Of a stretch of 64,000 nucleotides of DNA, positions 19,146-20,925 are shown in pieces; the first letter of the stretch is position 1; each line of letters begins with the position of its first letter. Source of the stretch: an uncultured Bdellovibrionales bacterium (GTDB lineage Bacteria > Bdellovibrionota_C > UBA2361 > SZUA-149 > CAZDWZ01); the NCBI GenBank assembly GCA_964405665.1, contig CAYOOT010000002.1, forward strand, positions 24,751 through 88,750, given 5' to 3'. The position numbers and the translations under genes were made by a program. The notes under the pieces were generated by a model. It was not told the DNA's origin, did not search any database, and saw only the letters and a program-made list of their open reading frames with translations.

Positions 19146-19163
19146 GGCGAGGCAAAGCTCGCC
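19146..19163. terminator. Short hairpin between convergent genes
   Basis: ggcgag-gcaaag-ctcgcc; no clear U-tract. Confidence 0.3.
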
Positions 19164-19180
19164 ATAGAGGAATACAGCAA

Positions 19181-19399
19181 CTATAATGTAGGAGGAATTT
19201 CGATATCCCGATCCATTACAGTTTTACGGCCATCGTTCTTGGCATTTTCAATTGCCTTATCACAAACTTTTTTAATCATTTCAGATAAAGCGCCTGTGAC
19301 GTTGGCAGATGTACTTAAGCCTGAAGCATCTTTAATGTAGCTTTTCAGCTTAGAAACAACTATCAACACGTTTTCTTTAGTTTCATTTTCTGTGGTCAT
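19181..19399 (-). CDS. Bacterial histone-fold protein (Bd0055/HBb-like singlet histone)
   Basis: LIVVSKLKSYIK...STSA...ALS....C..A.E.AK.DGRKTVMDRDI closely follows recalled Bdellovibrio Bd0055 (LVVTSKVKKLIK...NTSA...VLS....C....E.AKADGRKTVMARDI); RKTVxxRD histone L2 motif; GGGGG SD-like sequence upstream. Confidence 0.9.
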   Translation of the reverse strand: MTTENETKENVLIVVSKLKSYIKDASGLSTSANVTGALSEMIKKVCDKAIENAKNDGRKTVMDRDIEIPPTL

Positions 19400-19453
19400 A
19401 TTCCCCCATAAAGTCCATTAATTAACCAGTGGCTTATAACAAGCCTAATTTGA

Positions 19454-20350
19454 TTATTCAAGCGAAACCTCAGCAATTATAAATTCAAGACTAGTTTCTT
19501 CGGGATTAGTAAAGATTAGCATTCTTTCCACATAACTAAGATCCATTAATCGAGTTTTAGGGCCGTGTATCACTTCCTGGAGGGGAATTTCTATTGTATT
19601 TTGGCCCTTTACCAGCTCAAATTGTCCATTATAACGATCCTCAAATTCCTTGCATTTTGCTCGGTCATCTATCCGAATATTAATTAAAATCTGCTCTTTG
19701 TTTAGTAAATTTATCTTTAATTTTAGTTTTTTATATTCTGACCAATCAAAACCATTGGCCTTATATTCTAAGCCGGAAAATTTGTGGGCCAGTGTAGTCA
19801 CTTGATTAGCAGTGCCTGAATTACAGGGTAGACAAATGTCCTTAGGAAGCCAAAATATCGCATTGAGAAAACCAGAAGACTGAAAAGTTTGATCATAAAG
19901 AACAGGAAATTTTTCTTTTTGTATTTTTAAAGTTTCATATTCTAAAGTAAGTGGTAAAAAAATATAAATTGAAGCTAAATAAAAAATTCCTAAAATAATT
20001 ATTAAGCGAATAAAGAAATTTTTTATAATTTTAAATGATAAAACTATTCCTATTCCGAGGTACCCATTAATTAAGTCATTACTACTGGCACCTCTTCCAA
20101 ATAAAGGTTGAATCAACTCGATCAATACCGGCAATATTAAAAGAAAAAATAAAAGTTTTTCTTTTTTTACTTCCTTAAAAAAACAAAAAAAGCCAAGAGT
20201 AATCAGCATAAATAGGGGGAAATGCAGAGAATCGGAAAGTGTTTCAAAAAAATAGCGATATCTGAGCTTGGGATAGGGAACTAAAAAAAGTATAGCCAGG
20301 GCAAGTGCGAAGTAACGAACTCTTTTGTCTTGAGAAAGGAATTTTTTCAT
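19454..20350 (-). CDS. VanZ-family membrane protein with C-terminal carbohydrate-binding-like beta domain
   Basis: LHFPLF, IELIQPLFGRGASSNDL (VanZ: E..Q...GR..s..D); soluble domain with IRIDD and IEIPL; start set at ATG 20350 because the longer ORF start lies inside a REP. Confidence 0.75.
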   Translation of the reverse strand: MKKFLSQDKRVRYFALALAILFLVPYPKLRYRYFFETLSDSLHFPLFMLITLGFFCFFKEVKKEKLLFFLLILPVLIELIQPLFGRGASSNDLINGYLGIGIVLSFKIIKNFFIRLIIILGIFYLASIYIFLPLTLEYETLKIQKEKFPVLYDQTFQSSGFLNAIFWLPKDICLPCNSGTANQVTTLAHKFSGLEYKANGFDWSEYKKLKLKINLLNKEQILINIRIDDRAKCKEFEDRYNGQFELVKGQNTIEIPLQEVIHGPKTRLMDLSYVERMLIFTNPEETSLEFIIAEVSLE

Positions 20351-20369
20351 TTGTAAATTAGAGACGTTT

Positions 20370-20445
20370 GTAGGGGCAGCCTTTATGGCTGCCCGGTCGA
20401 CCATAATATTTAGTAATTCCGGGCAGGGATAAACCCTGCCCCTAC
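20370..20445. repeat. Inverted pair of GTAG-type REP elements
   Basis: gtaggggcagcctttatggctgccc (20370-94) and gggcagggataaaccctgcccctac (20421-45). Confidence 0.9.
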
Positions 20446-20454
20446 AATATGATC

Positions 20455-20925
20455 TTACTTAATCCTTTTAAGTACAGGCTTATTAGATTTACTGCCAGCC
20501 CCTTTTCCGCCTTCTTCCACATGAAGATTGGGTTGGGGTTTTGTTGTGGCTTGCTTCTGCTCTTCACGAGAACCTTCAATTTGCTGAACTATTAAATCTT
20601 TTAGAACTTCTAAAGGAAGCTGATCCGGCCAGACCTGACTTTCCCCCTCACTGTTTCTTAAACCCCAGACAGCTTTCCAAGGGATGATACATTGAAAATA
20701 ATTTCCACTAAATTTCAAATAAGTGGAGATTTCTTGATCATTATGTGTGGTTTCCCCTTGAAAAAGATAACTAACTTTCAAAGTCAGTGCTTTATTGTCC
20801 TTTAAGTATTCAGGCACAACTACACCTTCTTGACCAGAATTCAGGTAAATCAATACATGATCTCCTTGCATCCATAGCTCAAATAGTTTTATCTTCTCCT
20901 TGGTTTTATTATCTGTTTCTGTCAT
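20455..20925 (-). CDS. sspB: ClpXP adaptor / stringent starvation protein B family
   Basis: GVVVPEYL...LTL..SY...LKFSG..F...IPWKAVWG; flexible tail ending in KPVLKRIK (cf. XB motif RPxLRVVK). Confidence 0.8.
   Translation of the reverse strand: MTETDNKTKEKIKLFELWMQGDHVLIYLNSGQEGVVVPEYLKDNKALTLKVSYLFQGETTHNDQEISTYLKFSGNYFQCIIPWKAVWGLRNSEGESQVWPDQLPLEVLKDLIVQQIEGSREEQKQATTKPQPNLHVEEGGKGAGSKSNKPVLKRIK

What the first reader, a model, noticed from the sequence alone, without database searches (positions are those of the whole stretch)
19181..19399. Bacterial histone (Bd0055/HBb-like)
72-aa singlet histone fold, strongly resembling the characterised Bdellovibrio bacteriovorus histone Bd0055, with intact RKTVxxRD motif and a short acidic N-terminal extension (MTTENETKE). 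Bacterial histones are patchily distributed and only recently characterised. It is small and easily missed, and it lies downstream of sspB and a VanZ gene on the same strand.
Basis: partly seen in the sequence, partly recalled or inferred. Interest (0 to 1): 0.62.

Follow-up and report, generated by a model that had tools for sequence, protein, structure and literature searches.

The report
HBb-type bacterial histone gene

Summary
It passes the Pfam histone model PF00808 (27.8 bits, cut-off 21.4). Its best solved relative is Bdellovibrio bacteriovorus HBb/Bd0055 (E 1.3e-12, about 51% identity over 59 residues). An AlphaFold2 model (pLDDT 83.6) superposes on the HBb crystal structures (TM 0.83-0.88, rmsd 1.0-1.7 A).

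It shows the marks of the 'bacterial dimer' alpha3-truncated histones. Alpha2 is four residues shorter than in HMfB and alpha3 is a single turn. The RKTV motif and the RD clamp are intact. Eight of the 10 HBb DNA-contact residues are kept. The archaeal tetramerisation histidine is absent (Asn55).

A 93%-identical relative differs at 27 synonymous but only 5 non-synonymous codons. The host is an uncultured Bdellovibrionota MAG. Of 124 genomes in its phylum, 62 carry the gene. This genome also has a ZZ-type histone paralogue and five HU/IHF genes, like B. bacteriovorus.

The sspB-like/VanZ-like neighbourhood is real but confined to the closest relatives, and both labels fall below curated cut-offs. 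The acidic N-terminal tail is very probably translated and is common in near relatives. It is the only mildly new point. Verdict: new member of a known kind, low interest.

The parts
19181..19399 (-). HBb/Bd0055-type 'bacterial dimer' histone gene, 72 aa. Predicted alpha1 runs to residue 26, with the tail modelled as its N-terminal continuation. L1 is 27-31, alpha2 is 32-55, L2 with RKTV is 56-62, and a one-turn alpha3 is 63-65.
19370..19399 (-). Codons 1-10: a short acidic/polar N-terminal tail (MTTENETKEN, net charge -2, mean pLDDT 62), very probably translated.
   Evidence: The ATG has an SD-like GGGGG 3 nt upstream. The internal GTG/TTG codons (11, 12) have no SD and read GTA/TTA in the 93% relative. 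That relative has an in-frame 2-codon indel in the tail. Half of 115 near relatives have 8 or more residues here, with mean charge -2.8.
19400..19453 (-). Intergenic leader with the ribosome-binding site (GGGGGAAT-ATG). It is unusually conserved, but no convincing sigma-70 promoter was found in it.
   Evidence: 47/54 nt (38/41 nearest the ATG) match L067, against about 72% for the surrounding 1.4 kb. The promoter scan found nothing in this gap.
19146..19174 (-). Hairpin (GGCGAG-CTTTG... stem) in the 52-nt gap between the convergent histone and lipoprotein genes. It is a likely bidirectional terminator, but lacks a clear T-run.
   Evidence: Fold -14.7 kcal/mol, z -1.9. L067 has a different, 13-bp perfect hairpin at the same place.
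19454..20404 (-). Upstream neighbour, 316 aa: a membrane protein with a VanZ-like N-terminal part and a weak CBM/CIA30-like C-terminal part. It is context only, not part of the histone function.
20455..20925 (-). Second upstream neighbour, 156 aa: a weak SspB-like protein (ClpXP adaptor) ending in ...PVLKRIK. It is context only.

Best explanation
The gene encodes a small nucleoid-associated protein of the HBb/Bd0055 'bacterial dimer' class of alpha3-truncated histones, in an uncultured Bdellovibrionota bacterium. Shown here: histone-fold sequence and predicted structure, conservation of the DNA-contact and fold-stabilising residues, strong purifying selection, and a ribosome-binding site. Inferred from the characterised homologue: two chains form a head-to-tail 'handshake' homodimer. 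The dimer binds DNA without sequence specificity through phosphate contacts in the minor groove. These contacts come from alpha1 lysines (K17, K19, K23), loop L1 (T30, S31, A32) of one chain, and loop L2 and alpha3 (K59, T60, R64) of the other. The L2 loop is held by the R58-D65 clamp reinforced by D56. Because alpha3 is one turn long and the tetramerisation histidine is replaced by Asn55, it should not build tetramers or wrap DNA into (hyper)nucleosomes. Instead it should bend DNA like HU/IHF (Hu et al. 2024) and/or coat it end-on as a filament at high density (Hocher et al. 2023). It probably acts as an abundant general chromatin protein alongside the genome's five HU/IHF-family proteins and one ZZ-type histone paralogue.
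For: PF00808 scores 27.8 bits against a cut-off of 21.4. NCBIfam 'histone' gives E 2.5e-7. HBb structures 8cmp/8fvx match at E 1.3e-12, far better than the Leptospira FtF histone HLp (2.8e-5), HTkC (1.6e-3) or HMfB (6e-3). The AF2 model has pLDDT 83.6 with helices 3-26, 32-55 and 63-65. The Foldseek top five are all HBb, with TM 0.83-0.88 and rmsd 1.0-1.7 A. Residue mapping shows S9, K10, K12, K16, S24, K52, T53 and R57 of HBb conserved, T8->V and N22->S changed, the further crystal-contact residues T23 and A25 kept, the D49/R51/D58 clamp kept, and A48->N55, which is not His (residue lists from PMC11317129 and PMC10627809). Alpha2 is 4 residues shorter than in HMfB. The core length is invariant in 114 of 115 relatives. 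Synonymous versus non-synonymous codon differences are 27 to 5. The gene is present in 62 of 124 genomes of the phylum. The same genome holds a ZZ-like histone and five HU/IHF genes, the same repertoire as reported for B. bacteriovorus (PMC10627809, PMC11390915).
Against: No expression, abundance, dimerisation or DNA-binding data exist for this protein. The whole protein is net neutral (pI 6.2) and its core carries +2, against a family mean of +3.4. N22, the residue with the most DNA contacts in the HBb simulations, is Ser here. DNA affinity may therefore be lower than for HBb. No convincing promoter of its own was found. The DNA-binding mode of HBb itself is disputed between two published models.
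Confidence: 0.88

Rival explanations
1. It is an HBb-family protein whose acidic N-terminal tail changes its behaviour. The tail would fold back on, or compete with DNA for, the basic alpha1/L1-L2 face, or block the tight dimer-dimer packing of the HBb filament. The protein would then be a weaker, regulated or purely bending DNA binder and not a coating one.
For: The tail is very probably translated. It is acidic at -2, and near relatives average -2.8 with a range down to -6. It makes the protein net neutral. In the HBb-DNA filament the N terminus mediates dimer-dimer contacts (PMC10627809). Intramolecular inhibition by acidic tails has been proposed for coiled-coil histones (PMC11390915).
Against: The tail is only 10 residues long, poorly conserved in sequence and length, and has low model confidence. 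Deleting the four N-terminal residues of Bd0055 did not make it wrap DNA in the FRET assay (PMC10627809). Nothing here tests the idea.
Confidence: 0.15
2. It is a histone-fold protein that is not a general chromatin protein. It would instead be a low-abundance, specialised factor (for example a regulator, or a ClpXP-controlled protein linked to the upstream SspB-like adaptor), as the authors of the prokaryotic histone survey caution for uncharacterised histone-fold proteins.
For: It lies on the same strand, 54 and about 1050 nt downstream of the VanZ-like and SspB-like genes, with no clear promoter of its own. It is net neutral. The caution is stated in PMC11390915.
Against: The neighbourhood is shared only with L067 (partly) and L010, and not with the other relative loci, many of which have short flanks. 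The SspB label is sub-threshold. Sequence conservation is very high, as for the abundant Bd0055. The leader and RBS are conserved.
Confidence: 0.07
3. It is a nucleosomal (HMfB-like) or face-to-face (DUF1931/Leptospira-type) histone that forms tetramers and wraps DNA.
For: It shares the histone fold and the RKT motif.
Against: His49 of HMfB aligns with Asn55. Alpha2 is 4 residues shorter and alpha3 is one turn. The FtF interface residues R48 and N52 (read here from the aligned Leptospira histone) align with N52 and D56 (PMC11390915). E-values to those classes are 7-10 orders of magnitude weaker than to HBb. The genome has no DUF1931 match.
Confidence: 0.03

Closest known systems
HBb / Bd0055 of Bdellovibrio bacteriovorus HD100 (PDB 8fvx, 8fw7, 8cmp, 9ezz, 9f0e); 'bacterial dimer' category of alpha3 histones (Schwab et al. 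2024)
   Same: About 51% identity over the whole fold with no indel. Both have the same short alpha2 and one-turn alpha3, the RKTV motif, and the RD clamp with the extra Asp. Eight of 10 DNA-contact residues are shared and neither has the tetramerisation His. Both are single-domain proteins, and both occur in a Bdellovibrionota genome that also has a ZZ histone and HU/IHF.
   Different: It has a 10-residue acidic N-terminal tail where HBb has 3 residues before the core. It has T8->V, N22->S and K13->S. The core charge is lower (+2) and the whole protein is neutral (pI 6.2, against 9.3 for the HBb core fragment). The gene neighbourhood differs, and the host is an uncultured, low-GC (36%) lineage in a separate 124-species GTDB phylum.
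ZZ histones (Bd3044 type)
   Same: The C-terminal domain of the paralogue in this genome (L003 1102-1608) is 47-49% identical to the protein studied here.
   Different: The protein studied here has no zinc-finger domain.
Face-to-face alpha3 histones (Leptospira HLp, PDB 9qt0; DUF1931-related)
   Same: Both have the alpha3-truncated fold and the conserved SK.K alpha1 motif.
   Different: It lacks the R48/N52 dimer-dimer interface residues and has an acidic rather than a basic tail. The match is only E 2.8e-5.
Archaeal nucleosomal histones HMfA/HMfB
   Same: Both have the histone fold, the RKT(V/I) loop and the RD clamp.
   Different: Alpha2 is shorter by 4 residues, alpha3 is truncated and there is no His49. 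No hypernucleosome is therefore expected.

Membership tests
Histone fold (Pfam PF00808 CBFD_NFYB_HMF) | Score above the curated gathering threshold | tested here: met
   27.8 bits against 21.4
Histone fold | Helix-loop-long helix-loop-helix topology | tested here: met
   The AF2 model has helices 3-26, 32-55 and 63-65 with pLDDT 83.6. Foldseek hits are histones only.
alpha3-truncated histones (Schwab 2024) | alpha3 of only 3-4 residues | tested here: met
   DSSP helix 63-65 in the model
alpha3-truncated histones (Schwab 2024) | alpha2 4-5 residues shorter than in nucleosomal histones | tested here: met
   There is a 4-column gap relative to HMfB in alignment A2. Alpha2 is 24 residues.
Bacterial dimer histones (HBb/Bd0055 class) | Sequence clustering with HBb (the class is defined by sequence similarity) | tested here: met
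   HBb is the best PDB hit at E 1.3e-12, against 2.8e-5 or weaker for the other histone classes. Identity is 51%.
Bacterial dimer histones (HBb/Bd0055 class) | RKTxxxD motif / RD clamp | tested here: met
   R58 K59 T60 ... D65, plus D56 equivalent to HBb D49
Bacterial dimer histones (HBb/Bd0055 class) | Conserved alpha1 lysines | tested here: met
   K17, K19 and K23 correspond to HBb K10, K12 and K16. K17 and K19 are invariant in 60 relatives.
Bacterial dimer histones (HBb/Bd0055 class) | Absence of the FtF interface residues R48/N52 and of the archaeal tetramerisation His | tested here: met
   The aligned residues are N52, D56 and N55.
Bacterial dimer histones (HBb/Bd0055 class) | Forms dimers and nothing larger | not testable with these tools
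   Only single-chain prediction is offered. This needs AlphaFold-Multimer or SEC-MALS.
Bacterial dimer histones (HBb/Bd0055 class) | Non-specific DNA binding, high abundance, nucleoid enrichment | not testable with these tools
Nucleosomal archaeal histones (HMfB type) | Three-turn alpha3 and His49 four-helix-bundle interface | tested here: not met
SspB (neighbour at 20455-20925) | Score above the Pfam/NCBIfam cut-off | tested here: not met
   12.2 bits against 27, 14.5 against 191, the orthologue 16.4 against 27, and no PDB hit. It is a resemblance only.
VanZ (neighbour at 19454-20404) | Score above the Pfam cut-off | tested here: not met
   There is no hit for the window protein. The orthologue in L010 scores 21 bits against 30.1.

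The most novel reading that the evidence does not exclude
A large subclade of HBb-type histones, including this one, carries short disordered acidic N-terminal tails, the opposite charge to eukaryotic and Leptospira-type histone tails. These tails might tune or auto-inhibit DNA binding, or prevent the close-packed end-on filament seen for tail-less Bd0055. That would give a natural handle on the disputed HBb binding mode.
Probability: 0.15. Interest if true: 0.5.

Novelty: new member of a known kind. Interest (0 to 1): 0.2.

Why it matters
It adds one more well-supported HBb-type histone, paired with a ZZ histone and HU/IHF genes, in an uncultured low-GC Bdellovibrionota lineage. This agrees with the published picture that histones are a standing component of chromatin in this group. 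The only point that might repay work is the acidic N-terminal tail shared by about half of the near relatives. Comparing tailed and tail-less proteins could help decide between the 'bending' and 'end-on filament' models of HBb.

Tried and rejected
1. Conserved operon with sspB/VanZ. I ran tblastn of the window's neighbours against the fetched relative loci and clustered all flank ORFs. Only L010, which is in the same family, shares the whole arrangement. The genus-level L067 shares the VanZ-like, lipoprotein and desulfurase neighbours. L061 has a VanZ-like gene elsewhere. Many loci have only about 1.5 kb of flank, so absence is not proven there. I rejected the arrangement as a family-wide feature.

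2. Alternative start at GTG/TTG (codons 11 and 12), which would remove the tail. I rejected this. There is no SD before these codons, and they read GTA/TTA in the 93% relative. In nearly all relatives an SD-preceded ATG defines the tail.

3. Own sigma-70 promoter in the 54-nt gap. The scan found none, and hits across the region were no more frequent than in shuffles.

4. The small hairpin at 19431-19445. It is not conserved in L067, so I dropped it.

6. Other histone classes in the genome. There is no DUF1931 match. The PF00808 hits at C3 and C45 are weak matches inside larger unrelated open frames.

7. I considered a codon-bias estimate of expression and did not run it. A 72-codon gene with no reference gene set to hand would give too noisy a result.

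Full report
**Observation**

The ORF is there exactly as described: 19181..19399 on the minus strand, ATG start, 72 codons, TAA stop. The motif RKTVMDRD sits at residues 58-65. Ten acidic/polar residues (MTTENETKEN) come before the conserved core. No competing ORF of 40 aa or more overlaps it.

**Identity**

- Pfam's histone model PF00808 scores 27.8 bits against a gathering cut-off of 21.4. NCBIfam's archaeal 'histone' superfamily model gives E 2.5e-7, below its strict cut-off.
- Against all PDB sequences the two best hits are the Bdellovibrio bacteriovorus histone HBb/Bd0055 (8cmp and 8fvx, E 1.3e-12), aligned without gaps over residues 10-68.
- The other classes score far weaker: the Leptospira histone HLp (9qt0) at 2.8e-5, HTkC (9f2c) at 1.6e-3 and HMfB at 6e-3.
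- An AlphaFold2 model built on 60 relatives (pLDDT 83.6) has helices 3-26 and 32-55 and a single-turn helix 63-65.
- Foldseek's five best PDB matches are all HBb structures, with target-normalised TM 0.83-0.88, rmsd 1.0-1.7 A and 51-52% identity. Eukaryotic H2B, MHF and other archaeal or bacterial histones follow at much weaker E-values.

**Class features**

The published definitions come from Hocher et al. 2023 (PMC10627809), Hu et al. 2024 (PMC11317129) and Schwab et al. 2024 (PMC11390915). HBb-type 'bacterial dimer' histones belong to the alpha3-truncated family. Their marks are an alpha3 of 3-4 residues, an alpha2 4-5 residues shorter than in nucleosomal histones, an RKTxxxD motif, conserved alpha1 lysines, no FtF interface residues R48/N52 and no archaeal tetramerisation histidine. 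All of these are met here.

- The alignment with HMfB shows a 4-column gap in alpha2, and HMfB His49 aligns with Asn55.
- The positions I read as the FtF interface residues R48 and N52, from the aligned Leptospira histone, align with Asn52 and Asp56.
- Of the ten HBb residues with the most DNA contacts in the simulations (N22, R57, S9, T53, T8, S24, K10, K12, K52, K16), eight are identical. The two changes are T8->V15 and N22->S29.
- The further crystal-contact residues T23 and A25 are also kept.
- The D49-R51-D58 clamp is kept as D56-R58-D65.
- The distance from the SK.K anchor to GRKT is the same in 114 of 115 relatives.

**Selection and gene signals**

The nearest relative is P0001/L067, a 2-kb Logan contig at 93% amino-acid identity. 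It differs at 27 codons synonymously and at only 5 non-synonymously. Within the fold, the only two non-synonymous changes are the conservative I->V and K->R.

- **Start codon:** The ATG is preceded by GGGGG at 3 nt. The in-frame GTG and TTG at codons 11-12 have no SD and read GTA and TTA in L067. L067 also has an in-frame two-codon insertion in the tail.
- **Relatives:** In nearly all of the relative loci examined, an ATG with a canonical SD 5-10 nt upstream defines an N-terminal extension of 2-21 residues. The tail is therefore very probably translated.
- **Leader:** The 54-nt leader is 47/54 identical between the window and L067, while the surrounding 1.4 kb is 72% identical. No convincing sigma-70 promoter lies in it.
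- **Terminator:** A hairpin lies downstream in the 52-nt gap before the convergent lipoprotein gene (-14.7 kcal/mol, z -1.9). L067 has a different, 13-bp hairpin at the same position. This fits a terminator.

**Host and distribution**

The window is contig C2 of a 2.82-Mb, 132-contig, 93%-complete assembly with 36% GC. The closest named relatives of the histone are Bdellovibrionota/Bdellovibrionales MAGs. The best is isolate STL-BDEC1 at 73% identity. It is in the same GTDB family as the window's genome, because G010 and L010 are the same place.

The family also turns up in Spirochaetes, Chlamydiota, Cloacimonadota and Verrucomicrobiota MAGs, as published. In the window's own GTDB phylum (124 species representatives, one class), 62 genomes and 44 of 64 genera have a match. 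The large protein collection holds 329 relatives at E <= 1e-3. Some are already named 'histone H3/H4' (JGI) or 'histone-like protein [Bdellovibrionota bacterium]' (NCBI).

**Genome repertoire**

The same genome has a second histone-fold gene on contig C34 (L003 1102-1608, 168 aa). It has an N-terminal Cys/His-rich part (CxxC...Cx4C...Cx3C...Hx5H), a Pro-rich linker and a C-terminal HBb-like fold ending RKTVMGRDIN. That fold is 47-49% identical to the singlet. This matches the published ZZ histones (Bd3044 type).

There are also five HU/IHF-family genes and no DUF1931/FtF-type match. B. bacteriovorus likewise has Bd0055, Bd3044 and HU/IHF (PMC10627809, PMC11390915).

**Neighbourhood**

The order NadA, cysteine desulfurase, small lipoprotein (+ strand), then histone, VanZ-like membrane protein, SspB-like protein (- strand) recurs in full in L010. 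L067 shows the VanZ-like, lipoprotein and desulfurase neighbours. Among the other loci only L061 has a VanZ-like gene near the histone.

Clustering of all flank ORFs found no widely recurring neighbour, although many of those loci carry only about 1.5 kb of flank. Both neighbour labels are sub-threshold. The C-terminal ...PVLKRIK of the SspB-like protein recalls the ClpX-binding LRVVK tail of E. coli SspB. That comparison is from my own memory and was not tested. The context therefore says little about function.

**The tail**

Half of 115 near relatives have 8 or more residues before the core, with mean net charge -2.8 and a range of -6 to +3. In this protein the tail (-2) cancels the +2 of the core. 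The result is a net charge of 0 and pI 6.2. The family median pI is 7.9, and a third of members are below 7.

The papers read here describe basic tails on FtF histones and acidic tails on coiled-coil histones. Term searches of those papers turned up no remark on acidic tails in the bacterial-dimer class. This is the only mildly new point, and it is a property of a whole subclade, not of this gene.

**Mechanism**

By homology the protein should form a handshake homodimer. It should bind DNA backbone phosphates in the minor groove through alpha1 lysines and the paired L1-L2 loops. It should not tetramerise or wrap DNA. Whether it bends DNA like HU/IHF (Hu 2024) or coats straight DNA end-on (Hocher 2023) is unresolved even for HBb. 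Dimerisation, DNA binding and abundance are inferred here, not shown.

**Verdict**

This is a new member of a known, well-characterised kind in a phylum where it is common, so interest is low. I used it only as context.

Noticed in passing
own genome G000 contig C34; L003 1102-1608 (+): A second histone-fold gene of 168 aa. It has an N-terminal Cys4 + Cys2His2-like zinc-finger part, a Pro-rich linker and a C-terminal HBb-like fold (…GRKTVMGRDIN). It looks like a ZZ histone of the Bd3044 type.
   Followed up: partly
window 19400-19453 (-) and L067 912-965: The 54-nt leader upstream of the histone ATG is 87% identical (47/54; 38/41 next to the ATG) to a relative whose flanks are only about 72% identical. 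No recognisable sigma-70 promoter is present. It may hold a non-canonical promoter or a regulatory 5' UTR.
   Followed up: partly
window 20455-20925 (-); L010 3431-3952: A weak SspB-like protein whose C-terminus (…PVLKRIK; L010 …PMLKRIK) resembles the ClpX-binding tail of E. coli SspB (recalled from memory). All profile scores are below cut-off.
   Followed up: partly
window 19454-20404 (-); L010 4793-5785: A 316-aa membrane protein that combines a sub-threshold VanZ-like N-terminal part with a sub-threshold CBM11/CIA30/agarase-CBM-like C-terminal domain. This architecture is unannotated and conserved between a 36%-GC and a 57%-GC genome of the same family.
   Followed up: no
G000 versus G010 (L010): Two genomes placed in the same GTDB family differ greatly in GC (36% in the window against 57% in the L010 locus) and in size (2.8 against 5.1 Mb), yet keep the NadA-desulfurase-histone-VanZ-like-SspB-like order.
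   Followed up: no
G039:C22:15769-16140: One genome of the phylum has two histone-fold matches in tandem within a single 148-aa open frame. This could be a doublet histone.
   Followed up: no
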